The notes under the pieces were generated by a model, which ran no database searches, was not told where the DNA came from, and worked only from the letters and a program-made list of their open reading frames with translations. Positions 3,142-53,095 of a DNA stretch of 64,000 nucleotides are shown here, in pieces. Every line of letters starts with the position of its first letter. Position 1 is the stretch's first letter. Source of the stretch: an uncultured archaeon (GTDB taxonomy: Archaea; Asgardarchaeota; Thorarchaeia; Thorarchaeales; Thorarchaeaceae); assembly GCA_964558645.1 (NCBI GenBank), contig CAZLEV010000002.1, forward strand, positions 224,001 to 288,000. The letters are read 5' to 3'. Both the position numbers and the translations under genes were made by a program.

Positions 3142-3561
3142 CTATTCACCAATGACCTTAATCAAGACCCGCTTTGGTCTCCGTCCATCAAACTCTCCGT
3201 AGAAGATTGCCTCCCAAGGTCCGAGATCGAGCCGGCCATTGGTTATAGCAACAACCACTTCACGACCCATGACCTGCCGTTTGAGATGGGCATCACCATT
3301 ATCCTCTCCTGTACGGTTGTGTCGATACTGGCTGATGGGCTCATGGGGAGCGATTTCCTCAAGCCAGCGCTTATAGTCCTCATGTAGACCACTCTCGTTA
3401 TCGTTGATGAAGACACTGGACGTTATGTGCATCGAATTCACAAGACAGAGTCCTTCTTGAACCTCACTCTCGGCAACAGCCTTCTGGACCTTCGGAGTTA
3501 TGTGGACAAGATCCATGCGCTTTGGAACATTGAATGTTAGGTACTTTGTATGGCTTTTCAT
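3142..3561 (-). CDS. yjbQ: YjbQ/UPF0047 family protein (secondary thiamine-phosphate synthase-like)
   Basis: Motifs [46 protein letters not shown]. Confidence 0.92.
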
Positions 3562-3719
3562 TGCACCTGCCCACTTGACCTTGTTCGTAAAAGACTTGTC
3601 AATTGCCTCAATCGATTGCGCAATACAGACCTGTCTCTATGTTGTCCACAATATCCCTATAAAGATTCAAAACGATAAGCAATACAGCGCTGCCTTCCAC
3701 AGAGAAGGAATGAAAGGTG

Positions 3720-4826
3720 ATGAGGAGAAGTCCCCGCAGGCAATTCAAAGTCTGCCTGATAGGCGACGGTTATGTGGGCAAGACGTCAATCAGGCAGGAG
3801 TATCTGGGGAAGGGGTTTAAGGCAAGCTACATCCCCACCCTCGGAGTCGATTTCGCTCAGAAGTCGTTGATGTACGATGACAAAGAAACGCAACTTGTGA
3901 TATGGGATATCGCAGGGCAGCCCCTCTTCAAGAGCCTCCGCCAGAAGTACTATCAGGGCTGCAGCGGCATAATCCTCGTTTATTCTGTTGTGGACAGGAG
4001 CTCCTTTGACAACGCCTCAAAGTGGCTTGTTGAGGCCTACGGCTTCATGGGAGAGCTCCCACCCATAATAGTAGCGGCAAACAAGATAGATCTGCGATCA
4101 AACCGGCCAGAAGACGAGATAGTCACTTATGAAGAGGGGAAAGTCTTCGCGGAGAAGTTCAGTCAGAAACTGAATGCACCGGCCATTTTCATAGAAACGT
4201 CTGCACTGACAGGGGAGAACATCGAAGAGGCGTTTCAAGAACTGACAGAAATGATGGTTGAGAGAGTCGAGAGGCGCCTCCAAGGACTCAGAGAAGAATC
4301 GGCATCGACGATGCCAGAACAGGCCGCAGATACTCAAACCAGAGCAGTTGAATCGACAGAGACCTCTGCGTCAGGAGATTCAATGGGTTCGACCACTGCA
4401 AATACCGCACCCTCTGAGGCGGATTTTGACCCCGTGACCTCACTCATGAGCGACTCACCTCATCTACAGGAAGAGCAGATTGGAGAACATATGAGCAGAC
4501 TGCTCCAGTTGCGTAGTGAACTGAAGAGTGCAGAGGAAGAAATGGCACACCTCACCTCTCAGTATGAAACTAGGCTCTTGGAACTCAGAAACACCGTCCA
4601 TGTCAAGAAGCTGATGTATGAGCACCTCCAGACACAGATCAAGGAAACACGACAGGAGTGGTCTGATGCCTATGAGGAGTATGTGAAAATAGAGGAACAC
4701 AAGAACAGAGAGATAACACGACGGGGTAAGCAGATCGAGAGCATCCGAAAAGAAATAGAGCGTATAGGAAGGACAATAAGAACGAGGGTCGGCGACCTCG
4801 ATCTGAGAAAGGTTACTGGGTCATAG
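3720..4826 (+). CDS. Rab-like small GTPase with low-complexity linker and C-terminal coiled coil
   Basis: G1 GDGYVGKTS, G2 YIPTLGVDF, G3 WDIAGQ, KYYQG, G4 NKIDL, G5 ETSALT; heptad-rich C-terminal ~120 aa. Confidence 0.93.
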   Translation: MRRSPRRQFKVCLIGDGYVGKTSIRQEYLGKGFKASYIPTLGVDFAQKSLMYDDKETQLVIWDIAGQPLFKSLRQKYYQGCSGIILVYSVVDRSSFDNASKWLVEAYGFMGELPPIIVAANKIDLRSNRPEDEIVTYEEGKVFAEKFSQKLNAPAIFIETSALTGENIEEAFQELTEMMVERVERRLQGLREESASTMPEQAADTQTRAVESTETSASGDSMGSTTANTAPSEADFDPVTSLMSDSPHLQEEQIGEHMSRLLQLRSELKSAEEEMAHLTSQYETRLLELRNTVHVKKLMYEHLQTQIKETRQEWSDAYEEYVKIEEHKNREITRRGKQIESIRKEIERIGRTIRTRVGDLDLRKVTGS

Positions 4827-5056
4827 GACAGTTCACCGTTTCACTACGAACCATGCAATCACACTGATAGAAGAGTGTGGTACTTCCGTGGAATAGCATA
4901 CGAGCTTCTCTTTGAAACCTATATGGTGCTAGGGCAGACCCATTCTCGGTTCAACGCATGGATCTATAGGAGATTCTATCATTCGTCTTAAAGGGGGGTC
5001 TCATTGATAACCAGGTTACTTGTGGCTGTCGATAACCTCTCACCGTGCATCAGAAT

Positions 5057-5812
5057 TCAAGTCCTGGCAACCAAGTAACGCAGCCACATATGCCCACTAA
5101 GATCCGTATGCGCCGATATAAGATTGAGCCGCGTTGGTAGCTCTCCTTCTTGGAGATCTGGCGAGTCGAACAGGCTCGGCGTATCAGTCCCTCCCACAAG
5201 ACCCGGGACGATTTCGATGTTGACTTCATCAACCAGTCCAGCGCGAAGAAGTGCTCCATTGAGTTTCCCGCCTGGAGTCGCCAGTATGCATTCAACACCC
5301 AATAGCGAATGAAGCTTGTTGAACGTGGCATGCAGGTCAACATGACCATCCCCAGCAAGGAGGTAAGGGATTCCCTCTCGCTGGAGATAACCGAGGTACT
5401 CTCTGGGCGTATGATTACCAACCAGAATCAGGATATGCCATCCGGGCAGGTCATCGAAGGTCTTCGCCCATCCTCTCATTCTACCTCGGCCATCAACCGC
5501 CACACACCAGCCCCTCCGCTCTGGAGAATCAATGACTGAAGAGGGAAGAAAGTCCTGGTACAGGTCAGAATCTCCGATATCAGTCGAGGGCAGGGGTTCC
5601 GGTCTCCGATTCTCCGGAACAAAAGAACCACTTCCCTCCATTATTACGGTCGGCCTGTGGAGAGATATCAAATACTCTCTAACATTGATCTCGGGAGTTG
5701 ATGTGATGGTTTCGAATCTATCGTCGCCATCGAACATAGTCTTATTCGGTGCTATTGCTACTCGTCCGTCTGCAGATGCAACCGTGTACGTTACTACTCG
5801 GGGTCGATCCAT
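5057..5812 (-). CDS. RibD C-terminal/dihydrofolate reductase-like protein
   Basis: N-terminal RPRVV...ASADGRVA; AVDGRGR; GGKLNGALLRAGLVDEVNIEIVPGLVGG. Confidence 0.85.
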   Translation of the reverse strand: MDRPRVVTYTVASADGRVAIAPNKTMFDGDDRFETITSTPEINVREYLISLHRPTVIMEGSGSFVPENRRPEPLPSTDIGDSDLYQDFLPSSVIDSPERRGWCVAVDGRGRMRGWAKTFDDLPGWHILILVGNHTPREYLGYLQREGIPYLLAGDGHVDLHATFNKLHSLLGVECILATPGGKLNGALLRAGLVDEVNIEIVPGLVGGTDTPSLFDSPDLQEGELPTRLNLISAHTDLSGHMWLRYLVART

Positions 5813-5999
5813 TCAAAACTAGCTCCATGTGCTTTCTATGGGGCATTTCGAGGAGAAATATAATTCTGTTTCTCAGACACGACGAGCTTGACCACAACTG
5901 GGTGACGATTGGCGAATTACACAGCACTATCTCGTAAGAGATTGCGTATGAGGGTCGAAAAAGGTGGTCAAAAACCACACTGAGCAGTCTACGGGGCAT

Positions 6000-6182
6000 A
6001 CCAACAGCTACCGAAAACGTGGACAGAGTTGGGCATGTCAGCGCAGGAGTTTATGTGCTCCAGCCCATGAGAGCTGGTCATTTTCACAGTATCGCCGACC
6101 ACGACAGAAACCACCCACTGCCGTGACCTGAGGGGACAACTCTCTAGTACCAAGTTTGCTCAACATACAATGAACGGTTCTG
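6000..6182 (-). repeat. Dispersed non-coding repeat family 1, copy A
   Basis: Reverse complement aligns over ~180 bp with 26330-26512 and partly with 48221-48292; shared terminal motif CAAYNTACAATGAACG. Confidence 0.9.
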
Positions 6183-6229
6183 AAGGGAAAGAGTATTGAG
6201 ATAGCTCCCCTGATTCTCGGTGATGAACC

Positions 6230-6547
6230 ATGTCCGAACAGGAACCAGAATCAACGAAAGTCATTGCCGAACTTGTCATTGCGCCCTTTGGTGTAGGAAC
6301 AAGTCTGAGCAAGTATGTTCGAGAGTCTGTCAGAGTCATCGATGAATTTCCTGGCATAAGAGTCCAACACACTCCCATGAGCTCAATCATCGAAGCAGAC
6401 GATGTTGACAAGGTTCTAGCCGTGACCAAGGCGGCTCACGAGAGGATGTTCGAGGCGGGAGCCGAGAGAGTTTCCACCTTGCTTCGTATTGACGACAGAA
6501 GAGACAAGCCTCGTAGAATGGAGGATAAGGTGGAGTCTATATCGTAA
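6230..6547 (+). CDS. MTH1187/YkoF-like thiamine-binding protein
   Basis: IAP.G.GTSLSKYV, TPMSSIIE, RVSTLLRIDDRRDK...MEDKVES. Confidence 0.9.
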   Translation: MSEQEPESTKVIAELVIAPFGVGTSLSKYVRESVRVIDEFPGIRVQHTPMSSIIEADDVDKVLAVTKAAHERMFEAGAERVSTLLRIDDRRDKPRRMEDKVESIS

Positions 6548-6687
6548 GGCATGTAGGCTGCGAATGTATACACCTTACATCTAGACATGGGTTGCTCTTG
6601 AAGAGGTAACCGGGAGTAGTTTCTCCACAGGAGCGAGAGACAGCGCTAACCGAGTAGCCTATATCTTTGTGCATGGAAGTAGATACC

Positions 6688-7044
6688 ATGGTAGACAAAG
6701 AGGAAATCAAGACTGAGGATGACATCAGACGCGCCTTGAAAGGTTGGAGCGAGTTTGAGAAGGATGTTCTCGTTATCACCTCACGGATACCCAAGGGAAA
6801 GGTGAGTACCTACGGTCGAATCGCAAAGATGATTGGTCGACCTAGAGCCTATCGTGCTGTTGCCAACACGCTACACAAGAACCCACTACATCCTGAACCT
6901 GTTCCCTGCCACAGAGTTGTCAAGGCCGACGGCGGCTTTGGCGGAGAAAGACAAGCAGCTGCGAAAAGGAGAAAGCGGGTTGAGGAAGAGGGAGTTCCCG
7001 TCGAGAATGACCGGGTCAAGATAAGTGAGGACATCCTATTCTAG
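6688..7044 (+). CDS. ogt: Methylated-DNA-protein-cysteine methyltransferase (MGMT/Ogt DNA-binding domain only)
   Basis: IPKGKVSTYGRIA, RAVANTL..NP, active-site PCHRVV. Start chosen at ATG 6688. Confidence 0.88.
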   Translation: MVDKEEIKTEDDIRRALKGWSEFEKDVLVITSRIPKGKVSTYGRIAKMIGRPRAYRAVANTLHKNPLHPEPVPCHRVVKADGGFGGERQAAAKRRKRVEEEGVPVENDRVKISEDILF

Positions 7045-7058
7045 AGACTAGTTGAGTA

Positions 7059-8858
7059 TCAATGCTGGAAATAGGGGCTATCTATATCACTCTGGTCTTC
7101 GAATCCAACATCATCCAGCATGGAACCCATGGGTTGCGCACCACATGTCCACGATAAGCTGACAGTTCCATCTTCCTTGAAATCAAGTACTACATCCGGA
7201 AGGTCACCGAAGAGATTATGGTCGGCCTCCAGTACATCCTGATAGGCACCAGTCAAGCCAATCAGAAAATAGCCAACCTCGGCAGGGTCGGCCACAGGTA
7301 TGCCGGTGATCACTCTGTTCCTCGAACTCGTTATGAATCGATTGTCCTTGCTTAGTATCGGCTCATCAGGAGTGTGCCTAACGACAAAGGGAGAGATCTC
7401 CCCGTCACTGTCACAGGTCATGTCCACGAGCCGGACCGTTGCTGCAGGGTGTTTGTTGTGTCCAGAGAGAGGAATGACAGGAAAGTGCTGCTGAACAAAG
7501 ACATGGTCGAGACAGCTGTTGAAGACACTGAAATTACCTATCGAAATATAGTCCGGCTGCATGATCCAAGCGTAGAGATTCGCAGGCACGTGAATCCCTT
7601 TTTGCACAATACGTTTTCTAAGGATTGTCTTCAACAGAGTGACGAGTGTCTCGCGTTCAAGTAACTCGTCTAAGTCTCCCGTGGGCGTATCTGGTTCAAT
7701 GATCTCCCGCCAGATTGCATAGATAGCATCTTCACTCTGTGCTGCCTCAATCTTCTCTCTCCAACGAGCCAAGAGGGGATCTGACAAGTCAATCTCGGGC
7801 AGAAGACGGCGGGTCTCAATCACTTCCACAAGTATCATCGAACTCTGTGCAGTGATGGCTCTCCCCGCCTCTGTCATGATGTCCGGGTGATCTTCTGCAC
7901 CCTTCCGCTCACAGACATCCTGGATGGCTCTTAGAACCGTATTGAAATATACTGAAATGGGGTCCTTCGTAAAGAGACTCTCGTAATCAACCGGGATACC
8001 ACCACCCAAGTCTATGGTATCGAGCGCCCTGTAGCCCCTCTCCTTGAGAGAGAAGAATACTTCGGCCATATATTTTCCAAAATCGTGCATGTTTGTCTCA
8101 AGGTTGGTCAGCTGCGAGCCAATGTGAGCGTGGATTGTCCGAACATCGTCAAGGAGGCTGTTCTCTCTGAGGATATCTGTCACTTCGAATAAATCCTGAA
8201 CTGAGAGTCCGAACTTTGAATACCTACCGCCTGAGTGATGCCAGTGGCCGCTGGACTTGACGTATGGTTTGACTCTAAGGGCCAAATCGATATCACCGGG
8301 TTCGAAGAAATCAACCGCCAGATGCACTTCAGGAATGCTTTCGAGACAGACAAGTACATTGTGTCCAGCTTCAGATGCCTTCTTGGAGATGGTGAAGTAG
8401 TCTCTGTCTTTAACCCCGTTGCAGAAAATCAACCGATTCTTGTCTTCGCCGATAGCCCTCACGACCAAGAGCATTTCAGTCTTCGAGCCTGCTTCCAAGC
8501 CGTATCTGATGTCTGAGTTCAAGATGGTCCTGATGCAATCTACCTGCTGGTTAACCTTCACTGGGTAGAGAGGTTTGTACTCACCCTTGTACCCCTCTCT
8601 CAATCTATAGGACTCGAAGGCGTTGTTTAGTCTTCGAATCTTCATTGTTATGAATTGAGGAACACGGAGGGTGAAGGTAGAGGTATACCCCACTTCGGAG
8701 GAGTACTTACGGCGGACACGTTCTATCAAGTCTTGAAAAGGGAAGAGCCGGTCATCGAACTTGAGGCAGAGATTCCCGTCGGAATTGATGTCGAGGAAAT
8801 CCAAGTCACCACGGCCAACACCATGTATGAACTTGGCGTCCTCAACAGACCACATCAT
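7059..8858 (-). CDS. speA: Biosynthetic PLP-dependent arginine decarboxylase (bacterial SpeA type)
   Basis: WSVEDA N-terminus, PLP-lysine motif YPVKVNQ, GLEAGSK, CNGVKD, SKFGL, HAHIGSQ, DLGGG, EAGRA, NFSVF, DMTCDSDG, GAYQ...HNLFG. Confidence 0.9.
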   Translation of the reverse strand: MMWSVEDAKFIHGVGRGDLDFLDINSDGNLCLKFDDRLFPFQDLIERVRRKYSSEVGYTSTFTLRVPQFITMKIRRLNNAFESYRLREGYKGEYKPLYPVKVNQQVDCIRTILNSDIRYGLEAGSKTEMLLVVRAIGEDKNRLIFCNGVKDRDYFTISKKASEAGHNVLVCLESIPEVHLAVDFFEPGDIDLALRVKPYVKSSGHWHHSGGRYSKFGLSVQDLFEVTDILRENSLLDDVRTIHAHIGSQLTNLETNMHDFGKYMAEVFFSLKERGYRALDTIDLGGGIPVDYESLFTKDPISVYFNTVLRAIQDVCERKGAEDHPDIMTEAGRAITAQSSMILVEVIETRRLLPEIDLSDPLLARWREKIEAAQSEDAIYAIWREIIEPDTPTGDLDELLERETLVTLLKTILRKRIVQKGIHVPANLYAWIMQPDYISIGNFSVFNSCLDHVFVQQHFPVIPLSGHNKHPAATVRLVDMTCDSDGEISPFVVRHTPDEPILSKDNRFITSSRNRVITGIPVADPAEVGYFLIGLTGAYQDVLEADHNLFGDLPDVVLDFKEDGTVSLSWTCGAQPMGSMLDDVGFEDQSDIDSPYFQH

Positions 8859-10297
8859 TCCTCCTCCTCTGCTTCATCGATAAGAACATCCATCAGGCTG
8901 TCAAATGCCCGGGATAGGTCACCAATCTCGTCACCCCGAGATGTCTGTTTGACGTTGAGTTTCAGCTCTAACGGTTCAATAGAACTCTTGGTGAACTTCA
9001 CCACTGCAGCCTTTCGTATTCGTTCCATTATCTCCTGCAATGGTCCTGTCACCGTGCCTGCAACCCAATACCCAAGAATGCCTGAGATGATTATACCAAC
9101 CATCCCCACATACATGATCTGCTCAATTGTGAGTCTTAGAGTGGATGTGATCCGATTCTGAAGCAATGGAATTGCCTCCAAGACCTCATCGAGGGGGACT
9201 ATCAGCACACAGATGTATCCGCTCTTGCCGACAGGGGTATACACAAGGAGTCGTTCTTCTACTCCTCGCCGGTATTCAAGAGAGCCGTCTTCTCCTGAAG
9301 TGATTGCATCAATCTGGAGGAGTGTTAGCGAATCTGATTCGACTGCACTGAATTCGGGAAGCCCCTCTTCATATGCAGAATCGGGTACTTCAGGATGTGC
9401 AACTACCAGACCATCGCTTTGAATCAGAGTTGCGTAGCCATTCTCATACACATCTATGTCCAAGACGCGATTCTTGATGTCTTGGATTGTAATGTCTCCA
9501 GCGATGACACCTAGCATCTGATTGTTCTCATGGAACACAGCCTTACCGATCGATATCAGAAGCACTTCGTCTATCGGATCATAATATGGTTCTACAAAGA
9601 CGATGTCCCCATCTCCTGCTGCAATCTCAAGATACCAATCATCAAGAGTGGGATACCAGGGGTCCAGCTGCCTCTCTGCATCAGTTCCTCCTAGGATACT
9701 CCCGGGGTAGTTGATGAACATATCATTGTCTGCGAATGTGAAATAGAGCCATCTGAACTCCGGAACTCGATCTCGGATAGATCTGAAGATATTGTCCATG
9801 TTGGACACAAGGCCAAGGCGTTCTGAAGAGGCGCCTGCGTAGGTTGCCCAATTCGAGCTGTCAGACCCGGGAATGTACCAGCTGCTATACTCCCAAGAAA
9901 CATTGATTCCATAGTCCGGGTCAAACTCTATGTCGGCAGGATGCGGACCTTCGGAGGGGTTTTCGAAGAAATAGTCGTAATAGGTCTCACGGGCGAAATA
10001 GGTATTCTCATCACTGAAGAGGCGTTCTATCTCTTCAGCCATGCTGATGACCATTCCTTCAGCAGTGGTCAGTTTTTGGTTTATCACATTTGATGTGGTG
10101 ACGCCTGTGGCCAGCATATCATTGATTGCCTGCCCCTTGAGAGCATCTATGCTCCGAGAAGTCGTTGTGTCACCTATCAACACTCCAAACCCCATTGAGA
10201 AAGCAGTTGTCAGAGCAACAGATGCGGTTGTGATTACCAGAAAGGCCACCAGCATTGTTCTCTTGAAGCTAGTTCCGGTTGTTCTATTCTTTGCCAT
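8855..10297 (-). CDS. Membrane sensor TM-dCache-TM-HAMP with no output domain
   Basis: Two hydrophobic segments; Cache motifs FRWLYF...FINYPG, DDWY, EPYYD, GVIAGDIT, GYATLI..DG.VVAHP; HAMP ending GDEIGDLSRAFDSLM, then stop after ~11 residues. Confidence 0.85.
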   Translation of the reverse strand: MAKNRTTGTSFKRTMLVAFLVITTASVALTTAFSMGFGVLIGDTTTSRSIDALKGQAINDMLATGVTTSNVINQKLTTAEGMVISMAEEIERLFSDENTYFARETYYDYFFENPSEGPHPADIEFDPDYGINVSWEYSSWYIPGSDSSNWATYAGASSERLGLVSNMDNIFRSIRDRVPEFRWLYFTFADNDMFINYPGSILGGTDAERQLDPWYPTLDDWYLEIAAGDGDIVFVEPYYDPIDEVLLISIGKAVFHENNQMLGVIAGDITIQDIKNRVLDIDVYENGYATLIQSDGLVVAHPEVPDSAYEEGLPEFSAVESDSLTLLQIDAITSGEDGSLEYRRGVEERLLVYTPVGKSGYICVLIVPLDEVLEAIPLLQNRITSTLRLTIEQIMYVGMVGIIISGILGYWVAGTVTGPLQEIMERIRKAAVVKFTKSSIEPLELKLNVKQTSRGDEIGDLSRAFDSLMDVLIDEAEEEE

Positions 10298-10311
10298 TTG
10301 TTTGCCTCCTC

Positions 10312-13056
10312 TTAGAAGTCCACCTGTGTTCCTCCCATCTCGAGTTGAGTTTGCATCTCGTCCTCGATGCCTTCGAATCTCTGAAGAATTCCTTCCTGTT
10401 CTTTGCCAGCCTCTGAAACCGGCAGGTACGTGGCACCTTCAATCCGCTTGCACATTCTCTCTAGGACCCGTTCGTGATCTGAACTGCACATGACTCCGAT
10501 GATTCGCAGTTTTATATCACCCTCCAAACGATTGGCGAACCGAACGATAGAGTCTTCATTATGGGTCCTTGAAGAGTTGTCCTCGCCATCAGTGAGTGCG
10601 ACAATCCACCGCTCAGCATTCTGTTCGTTGGCAATGTTCATGAGAGCCAGACCGAGTGCGTCATAGAAAGCTGTGGCCCCGCCAAGGCGAAGCGCGCGGG
10701 CAATCTCCTTCCTTGCAGTAGAATAGTCTGGGCCCAATGGTGCAAGCCTGCGGAGTTCACTGACAACAGTGTCGAATGCCAACACACCAACACTATCATC
10801 AGGTTGCGCCACAGCATCAACCATCCTCTGAGCACCTGCAACTGCCGCCTTTATTCTACCGCTCTGCCCCATGCTCCCCGATTTATCGATGACGAAGACG
10901 ATGGCACGCCGCACTCGATGTCTCACAGTGGAACCCAGAATCTTCTCCGCCTGACGACGGATTTCATGACTCGGCTCACCCATATCTTCAAGAACATCAG
11001 CCAGAAGGGAGAGCGATCTGCCCGCAAGAGGCCACTCCTCATTCTCCTGTGACATGTTGGCAGCCTCAACAAGATCAGACCGGGCATCTTCGTACATTGC
11101 CATCTCGTAGTACATCATACCTCTGTGATAGTACACATAGGATTTTGACCGTTCATAGTATGTTCCTTCAAGAAGCTCAAGCGCCCGGTCAAACATCTCT
11201 CTGGCTTCATCAAACTCCTTCAGGGCCATCTTACAGACCCCGATGGTGTCGAATTGATTGGCCATGCCTCGATTGTTTCCCAGTTTCTTGTTGATTTCCA
11301 ATGCTTCCTCCAGATGGGTCAGGGCCTTGCGGTAGTTCTCCCTCTTTGGTGACATCTCGAGGGCGCCGAAGTTGTGCATGACATCGGCAATACGCACCTG
11401 AGCATCCTTTCTTTCTAGGTCAGTCTTTGCTTCTTTCAGCATCTGACGGGCTAGTCCTTCTGCAGATTGATACCTCGCCGATGCCTCCTGCAGTTGGCCT
11501 CTTTGTCTGTGAACATTTCCAATATTGAGGTCTGCAGCCTGGATGCCTTGAATCACCTTGAAATCGACACAGAGTTGTCGAAGCCGAGTATACGTTTCTA
11601 GAGCAAGTGCCAAGTTTCCTCTGATGAACTCCTTGTTGCCAGCTCGCATCGAGTCTTGGAGATTCTGAATTGCCTCCATGGTGATCTGCAGTTCCTTATA
11701 CCGCAGGTCATGTATGGGAACCATTCCAGTCAAGTCGCCACGGCTCATATTGATCAAGACATCTGTGGCTTGTGCAAGTGGTTTGGCCATCTCTTCGCCT
11801 TTTCTGGCCGCATATTTCGACGAAACATAGATTGTGACTGCTACACAGCCAACAAGAATCCCGATGATTATCAGGCTCTGAAAGCCAATCGCTGCGGAGA
11901 GAGCGAGTGCAGCTTCAATCACATCCGTTTCAGGAGTAACCGTACACAGAACCATACCGGTCGTAGGGACTCTCTCAAATGTTAGATACCATTTTCTGCC
12001 TTGCTTCGTATATTCAATCTGGCCACTACTGTTTGTCAGAATGTCAGGGAGAATAGAGGAGAATGCATCAGCCTCTGAAGATGCGGAGCCACCAAACTCA
12101 GCATCATAGATATCTTGGCCTTCAGCCGTAAACGAGGGGTGTGCTATCAGGCCCCCGGCGGTTCCAAGAAGGAAAGCATACCCGTTCTCACTAATCTCCT
12201 GAGAGAGTACTTCGTTGTTAATTGTGTCAAGAGTCACGTCAGCGGAAACAACACCAATCAGCGTGTTGTTGTCGAATCGGATGGGCCGGCCCATGGACAA
12301 TACAAGGCCAGTGGACGGATCACCATAGGGTTCTGTGACAGCAATGGAATCATCCAAGATATCGGCAGCGTTGAGATACCATTCCTCTGAATTGGGATCA
12401 TAATCCTCTCCTTCTCCATACCAGTCCAAGAAGTATTCCAGATTGTCATAGGGGTAGTTCCTGAATAGATGTCGATTCGAGATTGAGAGGTCAAAGCCCA
12501 TATACAGCCAGATATAGTCCGAACTCATTTCATGAAGCGACTGGAATATGTTGTCCATATTGGACGATGTGTCCAAGACATAGCGCATATCATCGTCCCA
12601 TTGGAATGGGTCGTCGTCAATGTAGTAGTCTCTAGGCATGTAGTAACAACTGACATCAAACGATATGCTGTCCGATTCATACTCATCGATGGATTGCAGA
12701 TTAGGGACTGTATAGCCCGTATTGGCGAGCTCAAGACTGGGATTCCAGAAGTAAGAGTGACGCGGGCTAGCATCATACCGTTCGTTGAATAGATTCTCGG
12801 CATAGTCCTCCATCATGTAGACACCATGGAAGTACTGCTCTATCCGCTCCTCAATGAAGGTGGCAGTATCAGCTGTTACCCTCTGCAGACTTCCCAGTTC
12901 CTCCTTAGTCAAAGCCTCTGCGGCTTCAGCCGTGTTCTGTTCTGACATGAAATACACGCTAGAAACCATGTATGAAGCAATCAGAAGCACGGAGATGATA
13001 ACTGAAGCGCTAAGGCCTCTTGTAACTTTCTTTGTAATACTCCAGGTCTCAAACAT
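10312..13056 (-). CDS. Membrane receptor TM-dCache-TM-HAMP-TPR-VWA
   Basis: Cache YIWLYMG..RNYP..YDPNSEEWY..EPYGD..GVVSAD; HAMP KPL...GDLT; several TPRs (LNIGNVHRQRGQLQEA, HNFGAL, DTIGVC, YHRGMMY); VWA MIDAS IDKSGSM / GGATAFYDAL / LTDGED. ATG 13056 has a GGAG upstream. Confidence 0.88.
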   Translation of the reverse strand: MFETWSITKKVTRGLSASVIISVLLIASYMVSSVYFMSEQNTAEAAEALTKEELGSLQRVTADTATFIEERIEQYFHGVYMMEDYAENLFNERYDASPRHSYFWNPSLELANTGYTVPNLQSIDEYESDSISFDVSCYYMPRDYYIDDDPFQWDDDMRYVLDTSSNMDNIFQSLHEMSSDYIWLYMGFDLSISNRHLFRNYPYDNLEYFLDWYGEGEDYDPNSEEWYLNAADILDDSIAVTEPYGDPSTGLVLSMGRPIRFDNNTLIGVVSADVTLDTINNEVLSQEISENGYAFLLGTAGGLIAHPSFTAEGQDIYDAEFGGSASSEADAFSSILPDILTNSSGQIEYTKQGRKWYLTFERVPTTGMVLCTVTPETDVIEAALALSAAIGFQSLIIIGILVGCVAVTIYVSSKYAARKGEEMAKPLAQATDVLINMSRGDLTGMVPIHDLRYKELQITMEAIQNLQDSMRAGNKEFIRGNLALALETYTRLRQLCVDFKVIQGIQAADLNIGNVHRQRGQLQEASARYQSAEGLARQMLKEAKTDLERKDAQVRIADVMHNFGALEMSPKRENYRKALTHLEEALEINKKLGNNRGMANQFDTIGVCKMALKEFDEAREMFDRALELLEGTYYERSKSYVYYHRGMMYYEMAMYEDARSDLVEAANMSQENEEWPLAGRSLSLLADVLEDMGEPSHEIRRQAEKILGSTVRHRVRRAIVFVIDKSGSMGQSGRIKAAVAGAQRMVDAVAQPDDSVGVLAFDTVVSELRRLAPLGPDYSTARKEIARALRLGGATAFYDALGLALMNIANEQNAERWIVALTDGEDNSSRTHNEDSIVRFANRLEGDIKLRIIGVMCSSDHERVLERMCKRIEGATYLPVSEAGKEQEGILQRFEGIEDEMQTQLEMGGTQVDF

Positions 13057-25315: not shown

Positions 25316-26185
25316 CTAGTAGTTTCCCGCCTGACCCGGGACCTCCTCACGTGGAACCAGTTCGAGGGCATCATAATTGCATGCGTGTCTGCAGACACCA
25401 CAGCCGAAACACTTGTCCAAATCAACGACGACTCTTCCAACTGAAGGCAGGTACCTTAGGGCGTTGAACTGACACATGCTAACACACTGCTGACAGCCCT
25501 GACAATTATCTTGGTTGATGTTGATGACATACTCTGCCTTGTAAACGGTCTTCAGGCCGAAGTCGTTTCGGAGGCGGAGACCGCCACATTCAGGACTCTC
25601 ACAGGAACAGATTGCGTTGATGTACGGTATTGGCTGGAACCAAACAGAGGCCACGTATCCCTTCTTGTTCTGCCGTTCGAGGGCCTCAATTGCCTCTTCG
25701 CGGTCAAGACGATACTTGGTGTTTTCAGGGATATATCTCGGGAGTTTCTCGATGATGCCAGACAACTGACCAAAGTTGATACAGACAGCATCCTTTACAC
25801 CGCGTTGCATCCATCTGCACAGGCAGTAGTTCTTGATGATTGGCTCCGCAGCAAGGTTCCCGAGTATATGCTGGGCATCCTCAAGAGGAATCACCTGACC
25901 AAAGTGCCCGTCTGCTCGCTTCGGGACCCGAGCGTGACTCTCACTGTGTATCTGACGTTCTGCAGCTGCGCGCAAAACGCGTCCGATGATAGGCATCTGC
26001 ATCTTGTAGCCAAGACCAACCGAACTGAAGCCCATGACCTTTCGAATAAACAGCGTTTCCATGTTCTGCCACTGTTCTTCCAAGTATTCCCGCATGTTGT
26101 ATTCATCGGCTAGTTCGTCAGAATAGAGGCGAGCGTTGTTGTACCACTTACCGCCTTCTCCGTGCTTCATACACCATTCACACAA
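25316..26185 (-). CDS. 4Fe-4S dicluster-containing protein
   Basis: CQGCQQCVSMC, CFGCGVCRHAC, plus CLC and ICSC motifs. Confidence 0.87.
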   Translation of the reverse strand: MCEWCMKHGEGGKWYNNARLYSDELADEYNMREYLEEQWQNMETLFIRKVMGFSSVGLGYKMQMPIIGRVLRAAAERQIHSESHARVPKRADGHFGQVIPLEDAQHILGNLAAEPIIKNYCLCRWMQRGVKDAVCINFGQLSGIIEKLPRYIPENTKYRLDREEAIEALERQNKKGYVASVWFQPIPYINAICSCESPECGGLRLRNDFGLKTVYKAEYVININQDNCQGCQQCVSMCQFNALRYLPSVGRVVVDLDKCFGCGVCRHACNYDALELVPREEVPGQAGNY

Positions 26186-26329
26186 TTTGATTCACCGTGC
26201 CTGCTGAAGTACGACCATCAGAATTGCAGTATTTAAGACATGATGGCATATGGAGTGGTTACATCGTCACTAAGCTAAGTACTCCCACCTCCTTTGGAAC
26301 CTGTCTAACAGCACGGCGTCATGCCTTAG

Positions 26330-26512
26330 CGTTCATTGTATGTTGGACAAACTTGAACACCAGAGAGTTGTCCCCCTCAGCTAACGGCACTGGGTGGTTT
26401 CTGTCGTGGTCAGTGATACCGTGTGAGTGACCAGCCCTCAGTCATGGGCTGGAGGATATAGACTCCTACGCCGAAATGTCCAACTTCGTCCACGTTTTCA
26501 GTAGCTGTTGGT
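26330..26512 (+). repeat. Dispersed non-coding repeat family 1, copy B
   Basis: Aligns over its full length with the reverse complement of 6000-6176; contains hairpins TGGTCA/TGACCA and CCAGCCC/GGGCTGG. Confidence 0.9.
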
Positions 26513-26679
26513 GTACCAGATGTGCCTCACAAAGTCAGTGACAGCCAATCATTGAACGAGAAGCTGAGTTCTATCAGTTCACAGATAGAAGCCTTTCAAC
26601 CGAACAAAAACCCTTTTGTAGCCCATACATCTTCACTATTGATGCCTTCCTTAACAGCAGGAAGGAGGTATACCAAAAA

Positions 26680-27483
26680 ATGGCGGAAAAGGGACCCCTT
26701 GTCCTCGTCATGATTGTGGGCCTAGTTATTGGGCTTGGAGTGGGCTATGCAATTCCAACATTGCTAATCCCACCCGGAGAAACCACTGATCTCCTAGACA
26801 CAATCCAGAGCCGAGGATACATGGTCGTAGGTACTAGTTCTGGATGGCCACCATTCGAGATGGTCAACTCCACAACTCAGGAACTCTACGGCTTTGATAT
26901 AGATCTATGTGAACTGATAGCGAGTGAACTTGGAGTAGAAATCCAATGGTCCGATATGGACTTCGACGCACTGGTGGGTGCTGCCCAGACGGGTACAGTG
27001 GACCTTCTTGCGGCTGCAATGTTCATAACACCAGAGCGAGCCGACGTACTGGACCATTCAATCTGGTACATTCGTACAAACCAGATCGTCGTTGTAACAG
27101 GTGATTCCACCCTTGAGATCGAAAGTCTCGAGGATTTGGAAGGCTACACCGTTGGAGTACAGACAGGTACGGTCGAGGATGATGAACTCACTGACTTGGT
27201 CAGCGAAGGCGTCGGAATCACAATCCAGCGCTACCCACGGCCAGACACTCTGTTTGCGGATCTGGACGGCGGCACACTCGACGCGGTTTACGTAGATGAG
27301 CCAGTCATCACCGTTTACTCAAAAGCCTACAGTCTAAAGTCGATATTCACAGTACCGGCTCCACCGACTGCCCTCTTCATGAGGAAGGGTAATCCAGAAT
27401 TCAGGAATGCCGTGAATGATGTCATAGCAGAGGCATTTGCGGATGGATCACTGGATGAAATGATTGAGAAATGGTTCGGGTGA
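26680..27483 (+). CDS. Polar amino-acid ABC transporter substrate-binding protein
   Basis: N-terminal TM; VGTSSGWPPFE, GFDIDL, DFDALV, ITPER, VGVQTGT. Confidence 0.93.
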   Translation: MAEKGPLVLVMIVGLVIGLGVGYAIPTLLIPPGETTDLLDTIQSRGYMVVGTSSGWPPFEMVNSTTQELYGFDIDLCELIASELGVEIQWSDMDFDALVGAAQTGTVDLLAAAMFITPERADVLDHSIWYIRTNQIVVVTGDSTLEIESLEDLEGYTVGVQTGTVEDDELTDLVSEGVGITIQRYPRPDTLFADLDGGTLDAVYVDEPVITVYSKAYSLKSIFTVPAPPTALFMRKGNPEFRNAVNDVIAEAFADGSLDEMIEKWFG

Positions 27484-47916: not shown

Positions 47917-48220
47917 CTGAATCAGGACTCATGTGTTAGCCTCTGTTTTCTAATTAAATTGTCCGATAAGAGTGTCAGATTCCCTGTTGTTTGCCCCTGA
48001 AGAAACCATACTCAAAGGAGATTATATACCACCGTCACGACTAGCATACCGGACTGGGTGAGTGAGCCAGTGCGGCAAGAGCAGCACCGAGGCTGCCACC
48101 GAAAACTCGGAGGAAACATATCTCCGAAGGGAAGTCCTCACTCTCCATCAAAGGAACTGCATCAGCTCCCGGAGAGTCCGCGGCTGTTCACCTTGCTCAA
48201 TCGAGCCTCGCTGCCTTCAG

Positions 48221-48292
48221 CGACGGATACCACCCAGTGCCGTTACCCAGGGAGATAACTCTCTGGTGTCCAATATACAATGAACGGTTCTG
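48221..48292 (-). repeat. Dispersed non-coding repeat family 1, copy C (partial/diverged)
   Basis: CGACGGATACCACCCAGTGCCGTTACCCAGGGAGATAACTCTCTGGTGTCCAATATACAATGAACGGTTCTG matches 6102-6182; a CCGAAAAC block near 48099 suggests it extends further. Confidence 0.82.
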
Positions 48293-52346: not shown

Positions 52347-53095
52347 GAATCGATTGAGGGCTGCGAAGAAGCCGGACACATGTGTGTAGGTGCTTATTGA
52401 TGATGGTACTCTCTTGAGGCCATCCCTATACGATACAAGACCTCACAGAGTCATTCCCAATACCGTTGCTGGGTGGGCCATTCTGGCCTCCTGCGTCTAG
52501 GTTACAATCAACGCTTTGGCAGATTCATCAGAAGATATACCCCCGACCGAGTTCCCTCCAGAACCCCCCAAATCAACGCGAACATAGTCACAAATTGTGA
52601 CTTCATTGTGTGACCCTCCATTGTGGCTTCGCATTATATACTGATTCTGAGTGGTATTCCTTGTGAAATACAATGGCTCTAGCTACCAATGACCAAGTTT
52701 CATTCGAGAAGAAGAACAGATTCCAGGGCAACACCCACGCGGTCAACGCCCTCTACTACGCATACATCTATCGGAGGTGATAGCACAATGGCAATTACTC
52801 TGGACAACAAGCATCCCAAGGACAGCATCCCGAAGAGGCAACTCTCCACGAAGGCTATCGCGGATGCCTACTTCAGGAGATAGAATCACCATGGATGATT
52901 CTACAGAAAGAAACGCATCTGACAGGGCGAACGCCAGGTCAGACCGCAGCAAGAGTGGCTCACTCTCGCTTGCTGAAGTGCTCGCGTTGGAAGCAACGTG
53001 AGCTTTCTCCTTTTTCCGCAAGTCCCGAACCAGACTATGCATGAGTAGATTCATGCCCTGCTGCAACCGTTCATTGTAAGTTGGCTCTTGAAACA

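What the first reader, a model, noticed from the sequence alone, without database searches (positions are those of the whole stretch)
6000..6182. Dispersed ~180-bp structured non-coding element in three intergenic regions
Seen: copies at 6000-6182 (-), 26330-26512 (+) and 48221-48292 (-, partial); A and B are roughly 80% identical by eye. Differences preserve stems as G-U pairs on one strand: CCAGCCC/GGGCTGG vs CCAGCTC/GGGCTGG with a 4-nt indel in the loop, TGGTCA/TGACCA vs TGGTCG/TGACCA, and ACGGCA/TGTCGT. Adjacent stems overlap. That strand always points toward the next gene (ribD-like, amino-acid ABC, flavodoxin), but TATA-like boxes lie between the element and the gene in at least two cases. 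Inference: an unannotated sRNA family or a non-autonomous mobile element, less likely a riboswitch.
Basis: partly seen in the sequence, partly recalled or inferred. Interest (0 to 1): 0.72.

Follow-up and report, generated by a model that had tools for sequence, protein, structure and literature searches.

The report
Miniature IS607-type transposon copies (Thorarchaeota)
The ~186-base repeat is a gene-less miniature copy of a known kind of jumping gene (IS607-type: serine-recombinase transposase plus RNA-guided TnpB nuclease) that multiplied in an Asgard (Thorarchaeota) genome; it is ordinary mobile-DNA debris, not a new host RNA or riboswitch.

Summary
The repeat is real. The window holds four copies: A 5998-6178, B 26328-26514, C 48214-48288 and a decayed fourth at 52437-52515. 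The genome holds about 39, and relatives of the same family hold many more.

It is not an sRNA family or a riboswitch.
- **Left end:** the other end matches the left end, plus the first ~10 codons, of MerR-HTH + resolvase (IS607-type) transposase genes in related genomes.
- **Parents:** two ~8-kb parents carry both ends.
- **Mobility:** copies are precisely present or absent between congeneric genomes. They sit at a GG(G)T core, with no terminal inverted repeats and no target duplication.

Only the last ~80 nt shows real covariation, in three helices including a pseudoknot. This is the 3' module of the predicted TnpB guide-RNA (omegaRNA) scaffold.

Copies decay evenly (~10%), and no RNA contig covered copy B.

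This genome has 11 tnpB-like genes but no transposase was found.

Earlier agents of this scan reached the same IS607 reading on other pieces of this genome. I re-tested it here and it holds. It is a new member of a known kind, of low interest.

The parts
5998..6178 (+). Copy A, a full-length miniature element of 181 nt. The + strand is the tnpA/tnpB sense strand. The left end starts at 5998 (ATACCAACAGCTACC...) and the right end finishes ...ACAATGAACGGT at 6178.
   Evidence: Alignment with 28 other copies. Covariance model (CM) R1 hits 6095-6178(+) at 73.5 bits. G001:C16 has only 2 nt (CT) in place of window 5996-6178.
5994..5997 (+). GGGC, the GG(G)T-type core flanking the left end of copy A. 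The consensus at other copies is GGGT.
   Evidence: Flank tabulation. The empty site in G001 reads ...TCTGCC-GG-CTTCTG.
26328..26514 (-). Copy B, a full-length miniature element of 187 nt. The - strand is the tnpA/tnpB sense strand. The right end lies at 26328 and the left end at 26514.
   Evidence: CM R1 hits 26328-26413(-) at 93.9 bits. Contigs of other copies in DNA runs start and stop matching at 26330 and 26512/26517.
26328..26413 (-). Right-end module of copy B. It is the 3' part of the predicted TnpB omegaRNA scaffold: helices S1 (CAGAA/CTCTG), S2 (CCCAG/CTGAG..., loop TGCCGTT) and P1 (GGACAA/TTGTCC), followed by the single-stranded tail AACATACAATGAACGCT. It also carries two TGTYCAA motifs.
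   Evidence: CM R1. Covariation counts. 73-81% identity to the sequence at the stop codon of 719-aa TnpB ORFs.
26415..26514 (-). Left-end part of copy B. It holds AACAGCTAC, two (G/T)TGGAC motifs, the hairpin GGAGTCTATATCCTCC with a TATA-like loop, and a remnant of the first ~10 codons of tnpA (...CGGTATCACTGACCACGAC).
   Evidence: Alignment with the DNA just upstream of serine-recombinase genes in five related genomes.
48214..48288 (+). Copy C: only the right-end module of the family.
   Evidence: CM R1 at 55.2 bits, E = 1.6e-10.
47929..48213 (+). The rest of the block that holds copy C. It is absent from G001. Its inner part (about 48130-48227) matches the 3' coding DNA of the second TnpB group of this genome, and other repeats in G001 and G002. 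It is a composite, not a member of the A/B subfamily.
   Evidence: G001:C36 has 26 nt in place of window 47929-48287. Match to the C26 tnpB 3' region.
52437..52515 (+). Copy D: a decayed right-end module with no recognisable left end. It lies just after a stop codon.
   Evidence: CM R1 at 41.6 bits, E = 3.5e-7.

Best explanation
The element is a non-autonomous miniature derivative (MITE-like 'mini-IS') of an IS607-type transposon of Thorarchaeota.

**Parent.** The parent is about 8-8.7 kb. In order it carries: left end, tnpA (serine recombinase with an N-terminal MerR-type HTH), a giant ORF on the other strand, a ~720-aa TnpB-like RNA-guided nuclease, and the right end.

**What the miniature keeps.** An internal deletion left ~105 nt of the left end: the TnpA-binding-type tandem TGGACA motifs, the tnpA leader and ~10 codons. 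It also left ~80 nt of the right end: two inverted TGTCCAA motifs and the 3' module of the predicted TnpB guide-RNA scaffold.

**Shown.**
- Identity of both ends with the parents.
- Precise presence/absence between congeneric genomes.
- A GG(G)T core at both junctions and in empty sites.
- No terminal inverted repeats and no target-site duplication.

**Inferred.**
- Copies were moved in trans by a TnpA serine recombinase, through crossover at the GG core as in IS607.
- The burst is old: copies sit ~10% from their consensus, about the divergence between the two congeners.
- The copies are now stranded, because no tnpA was found in this genus.
- Any transcript through the right end would be an omegaRNA whose guide is the flanking DNA, able to aim the genome's TnpB at the empty allele. 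That is a by-product of the architecture; it is not shown to be used.
For: **Right end.**
- The last 64 nt (tnpB sense) are 73-81% identical to the DNA overlapping and following the stop codon of TnpB-like ORFs at G000 C14, C1, C6 and C5.
- Those ORFs carry PF07282 and a weak PF01385 match.

**Left end.**
- The other end matches DNA directly upstream of ~200-aa resolvase genes in 5 of 14 loci from related genomes, in the expected orientation and running into the ATG.

**Complete parents with both ends on one strand.**
- L151 (G021): RE 3427-3508, TnpB 3438-5615, giant ORF 5688-11279, TnpA 11318-12010, LE ~12096.
- L152 (G049): same layout.
- TnpA is MerR/HTH_17 (aa 4-54) followed by Resolvase (aa 83-226).

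**Empty and filled sites.**
- Window A against G001.
- The C block against G001.
- G000 C15:56934-57139 against G001:C48 (empty CTCTGTG-ACCC-TCTT).
- The reverse case, a G001 copy inserted after GGGT where G000 has GGAT.

**Literature.** IS607-family elements have no TIR, no TSD, short subterminal motifs, GG termini and a GG target (PMC6188088).

**Context and distribution.**
- Neighbours are housekeeping genes.
- The family was found in 16 of 24 genomes of the taxonomic family searched and in 0 of 16 outside it.

**Right-end helices.** 81 double-change cells against 26.8 +/- 4.4 in shuffles (0/500); covariation score 0.243 against 0.131.
Against: - No serine recombinase (PF00239) and no Y1 transposase were found in this genome (92.8% complete) or in its two congeners, so current mobility is unproven.
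- No parent with a left end close to the A/B subfamily was found. The left-end match to the parents is motif-level, not high identity.
- The TnpB-linked right ends in this genome share only ~64-100 nt with the miniature.
- The giant ORF has no Pfam match here. A role for it (or for an Asgard Cas1-type protein, as suggested in PMC10691335) in transposition is not excluded.
- Copy C is a composite that does not fit a simple LE+RE deletion.
Confidence: 0.88

Rival explanations
1. The copies are more than debris. They act as stand-alone omegaRNA genes that supply extra guides in trans to the 11 TnpB-like nucleases of this genome, for homing or retention or for a domesticated RNA-guided function.
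For: - Each copy keeps the covariation-supported 3' scaffold module right up to the element boundary.
- Each copy keeps the tnpA leader with a TATA-like box upstream.
- The flank after the right end equals the sequence after GGGT in the empty allele.
- TnpB genes with a compatible right end are present.
- Stand-alone omegaRNAs that work in trans are described (PMC10691335).
Against: - Divergence is uniform along the element (11.5%, 10.9% and 9.4% from consensus), so the scaffold part is not visibly protected.
- Within the main subfamily there is no compensatory change.
- G.U and A.C counts are balanced, and many copies have broken helices.
- The one RNA run that matched covers only the neighbouring gene, not copy B.
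- Only ~80 nt of scaffold is kept, and it is unknown whether that suffices for these 720-aa TnpBs.
Confidence: 0.12
2. It is an IS200/IS605-type element (a PATE) moved as single-stranded DNA by a Y1 HUH transposase, inserting 3' of a GGGT target motif.
For: - No TIR and no TSD, a conserved tetranucleotide at the left flank, hairpins near the right end, and a link to tnpB.
- A canonical Y1 tnpA-tnpB pair exists in one related genome, G023.
Against: - Y1_Tnp was found in only 3 of 41 family genomes and not in this genus.
- That Y1 locus shows no match to the element's ends.
- The left end sits upstream of serine-recombinase genes instead.
- The same GG(T) occurs at both junctions, as expected for a crossover core.
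Confidence: 0.04
3. It is an independent structured host RNA: an sRNA family, or a 5' leader or riboswitch acting on the downstream gene.
For: - Intergenic location.
- A and B lie in divergent intergenic regions.
Against: - No Rfam match at gathering or at E <= 10.
- Fold z-scores are not significant.
- Orientation to genes is mixed, and many copies sit at gene 3' ends.
- Orthologous sites in a congener lack the element with the genes intact.
Confidence: 0.02

Closest known systems
IS607-family insertion sequences (IS607, IS1535, ISC1926) and their mini-IS derivatives
   Same: - TnpA is a serine recombinase with the DNA-binding HTH at the N-terminus.
- tnpB lies at the right end.
- No terminal inverted repeats and no target duplication.
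- GG at both termini and at the target.
- Short repeated subterminal motifs.
   Different: - The parents are ~8-8.7 kb and carry a giant extra ORF (1223-1863 aa) on the opposite strand.
- TnpB is ~720 aa, with a ~480-aa N-terminal extension.
- The host is an Asgard archaeon.
- The element studied has lost all genes.
- The core looks like GG(G)T rather than bare GG.
Stand-alone (effector-less) omegaRNA loci of OMEGA systems (Altae-Tran et al. 2021, as summarised in PMC10691335)
   Same: A mobilised, protein-free element that keeps the guide-RNA scaffold end, so the guide is read from the flank. It lies in a genome that also holds compatible TnpB genes.
   Different: Function in trans is not shown here. 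Only the 3' ~80 nt of the scaffold region is kept, and the copies look neutrally decaying.
PATEs / IS1341-type MITEs of haloarchaea (IS200/IS605 derivatives)
   Same: Short gene-less archaeal derivatives that keep the two ends of a tnpB-bearing IS. They are intergenic and multi-copy.
   Different: Those are tied to Y1 transposases and single-strand hairpin ends. Here the left end belongs to a serine-recombinase gene and the junctions share a GG core.
aCas1-associated TnpB loci of Asgard archaea (Cas1H-Asgard-1/-2; PMC10691335)
   Same: Oversized Asgard TnpBs. The second TnpB group of this genome ends with the published GTTCACTCA motif, and its 3' DNA is what fills the interior of window copy C.
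   Different: Copies A and B derive from the serine-recombinase-linked group. I did not test whether the giant ORF has a Cas1 domain.

Membership tests
IS607-family transposon (as a non-autonomous derivative) | The transposase is a serine recombinase with an N-terminal HTH followed by the catalytic domain. | tested here: met
   The ORFs next to the matching left ends in L151 and L152 have HTH_17/MerR (aa 4-54) followed by Resolvase (aa 83-226). This holds for the parents in related genomes. No such gene was found in this genome.
IS607-family transposon (as a non-autonomous derivative) | No terminal inverted repeats and no target-site duplication. | tested here: met
   The ends ATACCAACAGC... 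and ...ACAATGAACGGT are not inverted copies of each other. Four empty/filled comparisons show no duplication beyond the shared GG(T).
IS607-family transposon (as a non-autonomous derivative) | GG at the termini and insertion at a GG target. | tested here: met
   The left flank is GGGT in most copies and the right end is ...ACGGT. Empty sites read GGGT, GGAT and CCGGC. The definition comes from PMC6188088.
IS607-family transposon (as a non-autonomous derivative) | Short repeated subterminal motifs at both ends (TnpA binding sites). | tested here: inconclusive
   There are two (G/T)TGGACA motifs at the left end and two TGTCCAA motifs, inverted, at the right end. They are conserved in the miniatures and the parents. 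Binding by TnpA was not tested.
IS607-family transposon (as a non-autonomous derivative) | tnpB lies downstream of tnpA, ending at the right end. | tested here: met
   In L151 and L152 the TnpB ORF overlaps the CM R1 hit at the right end. The same holds for TnpB ORFs in G000.
IS200/IS605 (Y1) derivative / PATE | A Y1 HUH transposase is associated with these ends. | tested here: not met
   PF01797 gave 0 hits in G000 and hits in 3 of 41 family genomes. The G023 Y1 locus has no match to the ends.
Stand-alone omegaRNA (OMEGA) | A conserved structured scaffold ends exactly at the transposon right end, with the guide read from the flank. | tested here: met
   Helices S1, S2 and P1 have compensatory changes and run up to 17 nt before the boundary. 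The boundary is fixed by empty sites.
Stand-alone omegaRNA (OMEGA) | The RNA is transcribed and used by a TnpB in trans. | not testable with these tools
   The one RNA run with any match covers only 25906-26182, not the element. There are no raw reads of this organism.
Riboswitch / cis-acting 5' leader | Fixed position and orientation upstream of the regulated genes. | tested here: not met
   Orientation is mixed. 11 of 23 copies lie between convergent genes, and several lie 1-35 nt after a stop codon.
Known Rfam RNA family | A match to a curated covariance model. | tested here: not met
   No match at gathering score in the 64-kb window. Around copy B only noise appears at E <= 10.

The most novel reading that the evidence does not exclude
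In a genus where no transposase was found (neither the serine recombinase nor a Y1), the ~40 miniature copies could persist as a library of stand-alone guide-RNA genes for the 11 resident TnpB-like nucleases. Each would aim at the empty allele of its own site. That would be a transposase-independent, RNA-guided drive or retention system in an Asgard archaeon.
Probability: 0.1. Interest if true: 0.55.

Novelty: new member of a known kind. Interest (0 to 1): 0.22.

Why it matters
The main value is for annotation. The result removes a false lead (a 'structured sRNA family') and names about 40 intergenic blocks of this genome, plus hundreds in related Thorarchaeota, as IS607-type miniature transposons.

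It also gives:
- exact boundaries for these elements;
- the GG(G)T insertion core;
- a covariation-supported model of the right-end (omegaRNA 3') module for the oversized TnpBs of Asgard archaea.

These could help anyone trying to reconstitute those nucleases. The element itself is an ordinary relic.

Tried and rejected
1. **Rfam.** The whole window at gathering score, and 26200-26700 at E <= 10, gave nothing.

2. **A coding partner next to the copies.** The neighbouring ORFs are housekeeping genes: cysteine desulfurase, permease, alkaline phosphatase, sensor kinase, radical SAM, glutamate dehydrogenase and others.

3. **My first reading, an IS200/IS605 PATE moved by a Y1 transposase with a GGGT TAM.** I dropped it for three reasons:
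   - PF01797 was not found in this genome and is rare in the family.
   - Earlier scan notes pointed to IS607.
   - My own tests then placed the left end beside serine-recombinase genes.

4. **The inverted pair of 55-bp units at C16:23816/25649, taken as possible IS ends.** The ORF between them looked to me like a Gfo/Idh/MocA-type oxidoreductase from its N-terminal sequence (not searched). I saw nothing transposase-like in it.

5. **Whole-element consensus folding on both strands.** No supported structure emerged.

6. **A generic best-helix scan with shuffles for S1.** The background was too high to be informative. The column-based count was used instead.

7. **Using G.U against A.C counts to assign the RNA strand.** The counts are balanced.

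8. **Expression.** Among the runs found, the single RNA run holds only the neighbouring gene. It consists of contigs only, so it is no evidence either way for the element.

9. **Parent search in the Y1 locus and the G024 contig ends.** The contigs stop inside the repeat, so this was uninformative.

Full report
**Observation.**
Reading the three places and aligning them confirms a shared block. A and B align end to end and are 83% identical. C shares only the first ~75 nt and a short stretch near the far end.

The repeat is far from a chance match.
- A BLAST of copy B against the window's own assembly gives 28 matches. That assembly is G000: 3.63 Mb, 37 contigs, 92.8% complete, with the window at C2:224001-288000.
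- An nhmmer profile of the full-length copies gives ~39 hits. Fourteen are near full length at 75-90% identity; the others are more distant subfamilies of 189-211 nt.
- Boundaries are sharp.
- Contigs of other copies in DNA metagenomes start and stop matching at 26330 and 26512/26517.

Titles of matching public contigs show that the organism is a Thorarchaeota (Asgard) MAG. The repeat was found in 16 of 24 genomes of the same family that were searched, and in 0 of 16 from other families of the phylum.

**What it is not.**
- Rfam has no match.
- The whole element does not fold better than shuffled sequence on either strand, with z = -0.23 and -1.06.
- On 29 distinct full-length copies from three congeneric genomes, RNAalifold gives a covariation term of about zero in both orientations.
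- Orientation relative to genes is mixed. With crude ORF calls, 11 of 23 full-length copies sit between convergent genes, several 1-35 nt after a stop codon. The 'points at the next gene' pattern of A and B is an accident of two divergent intergenic regions.
- The adjacent ORFs are ordinary housekeeping genes.

**Right end.**
A scan of the genome for PF07282 found 11 TnpB-like ORFs. These are C1:~837, C14:53933, C6:821, C5:227012 and C16:1581.

Read in the tnpB sense, the genes end ...CCAGTGCCG(C/T)T..CTGGAC..GTCCAAG.TTGTCCAA.TTACAATGAACGG. The stop codon lies ~30 nt before that end. The last 64 nt of the miniature element are 73-81% identical to this sequence.

Pfam shows two TnpB groups.
- One is ~720 aa, with the TnpB core at aa ~480-705.
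- The other is ~560-590 aa, with a C-terminal extension.

The interior of window copy C matches the 3' coding DNA of the second group. That group's elements end with GTTCACTCA, the motif published for aCas1-associated Asgard TnpBs.

**Mobility and junctions.**
- *Copy A.* In the congener G001 the site of copy A is empty. The flanks align up to window 5995 and from 6179, with only CT in between.
- *Copy C block.* The 359-bp block holding copy C is replaced by 26 nt in G001.
- *A cleaner case.* G000 C15:56934-57139 is precisely absent from G001:C48. The empty site reads CTCTGTG-ACCC-TCTT. The filled site reads CTCTGTGA[CCGTTCATT...TTAACA]ACCC.
- *The reverse case.* A G001 copy lies right after GGGT where G000 has GGAT and no element.

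In the tnpB sense every copy reads GG(G)T | ATACCAACAGC ... ACAATGAACGGT | flank. There are no terminal inverted repeats and no duplication beyond the shared GG(T).

**Which transposase.**
I first read this as an IS200/IS605 derivative. However, the Y1 transposase family was not found in G000 and is rare in the family, at 3 of 41 genomes. The one canonical Y1 tnpA-tnpB locus shows no match to these ends.

Earlier notes of this scan on other pieces of the same genome called the same repeat a mini IS607-type element. I treated that as a lead and tested it.
- Resolvase (PF00239) was not found in G000, G001 or G002. Resolvase matches occur in 16 of 41 family genomes, most of them ORFs of about 200 aa.
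- The miniature's other end matches the DNA directly upstream of five of fourteen such genes, in the expected orientation. The shared pattern is GGGT, about 6 nt, AACAGCT(A/G)C, about 7 nt, two (G/T)TGGACA motifs, a leader, then ATGTTTTC.GTATC. The miniature keeps about ten codons of that ORF.
- Two complete parents carry both ends on one strand. L151 (G021) has RE 3427-3508, TnpB of 725 aa, a giant ORF of 1863 aa on the other strand, TnpA of 230 aa and LE at ~12096, about 8.67 kb in all. L152 (G049) has the same layout at about 8.1 kb.
- The TnpAs have a MerR/HTH_17 domain (aa 4-54) before the Resolvase domain (aa 83-226), which is the IS607 domain order.
- Published definitions of the family fit point by point: no TIR, no TSD, short subterminal motifs, GG termini and a GG target (PMC6188088).

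**Structure that is real.**
Across subfamilies and TnpB-linked right ends, the last ~80 nt keep three helices.
- S1: CAGAG(N)/(N)CTCTG.
- S2: CCCAG/CTGGG, around the invariant loop TGCCGTT.
- P1: GGACAA(A)CT/AGTTGTCC. Its 5' strand lies inside S1, so the two form a pseudoknot.

S1 occurs as CAGAGT/ACTCTG, CGGAGT/ACTCCG, AGGAGC/GCTCCT, GGGAGT/ACTCCC, CCGAGC/GCTCGG and CAAAGC/GCTTTG. P1 occurs as GGACA/TGTCC, GTACA/TGTAC, GCAC/GTGC and GGGCAG/CTGCCC.

I built a covariance model of this module. It finds 92 instances in the DNA held, including four in the window. On its alignment:
- 81.6% of cells pair.
- 81 cells carry a change on both sides, against 26.8 +/- 4.4 in shuffles (0 of 500).
- The covariation score is 0.243 against 0.131 (0 of 500).
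- Slid registers give 0.025-0.10.

This is what the 3' part of a TnpB omegaRNA scaffold would look like, ending 17 nt before the transposon boundary.

The strand cannot be read from wobble pairs, because G.U = 77 and A.C = 91. The tnpB-sense assignment rests on context and on published OMEGA biology (PMC10691335).

The compensatory changes lie between subfamilies, that is, between different master elements. Within the main subfamily the differences look neutral. Divergence from consensus is 11.5%, 10.9% and 9.4% in the left, middle and right thirds.

**Mechanism.**
*Shown:* the architecture, the junctions, the insertion polymorphism and the identity of the parents.

*Inferred:*
- Mobilisation occurred in trans by a TnpA serine recombinase through a GG crossover.
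- The burst was old, roughly at the time the congeners split.
- The copies are now stranded in a genus where no tnpA was found.

Any tnpB-sense transcript through a copy would carry the flank as its guide and match the empty allele next to GGGT. Whether that is used is open. The only RNA run with any match covers just the neighbouring gene.

**Verdict.**
This is a real repeat, correctly suspected to be a non-autonomous mobile element, but read on the wrong strand and over-interpreted as a structured RNA. It is a new member of a known kind: a miniature IS607-type transposon carrying the end of the TnpB guide-RNA scaffold. The same scan had already reached this reading on other DNA of this genome, and my independent tests agree.

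Noticed in passing
It lies directly after a stop codon and has no recognisable left end.
   Followed up: partly
window 47929-48213: The block holding copy C is a composite. Its interior matches the 3' coding DNA of the second (560-590 aa, GTTCACTCA-ended) TnpB group and other repeats in G001 and G002. G001 has 26 unrelated nt there, and the start codon of the downstream flavodoxin-like gene differs between the two genomes.
   Followed up: partly
G000 C16:23816-23870 and 25595-25649 (L091 3817-5650): Two 55-bp units in inverted orientation, CCGTTCATTGCAAGTTGGACAA(GA/TC)TTGTCCAACTTCTA.ACTGCTGTCTGCTATC. They share the family's terminal 22 nt plus a perfect hairpin, and they bracket a 360-aa ORF that I judged by eye to be a Gfo/Idh/MocA-type oxidoreductase (not searched). 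They may be solo end fragments. Their meaning is unknown.
   Followed up: partly
G000 C14:53964-56123, C6:134003-136160, C2:25187-27388 (L115, L117, L118): Oversized TnpB-like ORFs (718-733 aa) with the recognisable TnpB core only in the last ~230 aa. Several further copies are cut by contig starts (C1, C6, C28, C16), which suggests near-identical, recently active copies.
   Followed up: partly
G000 C26 ~35400 and C2 ~432900 (L116, L120): Both second-group TnpB elements end (…GTTCACTCA) within ~100-250 nt of a tRNA gene on the opposite strand.
   Followed up: no
G023 and G024 (for example G024:C91, C57, C16, C94 at 35-138): In these two related genomes many copies of the right-end part sit exactly at contig ends, a sign of high-copy, near-identical (recent) repeats. 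Both genomes also have serine recombinases and a Y1 transposase.
   Followed up: partly
L151 5688-11279 (G021) and L152 2217-5888 (G049): A giant ORF (1863 and 1223 aa) lies between tnpA and tnpB on the opposite strand, with no Pfam match at E <= 0.01. Earlier scan notes call it Cas1-like; I did not test that.
   Followed up: no
window 26330-26517, runs X2-X4: In sediment metagenomes of other studies the summed contig depth over the element is about 5 to 40 times that of the flanks (up to ~2900 against ~70 in X3). Related copies are therefore abundant in freshwater and marine sediment communities.
   Followed up: no
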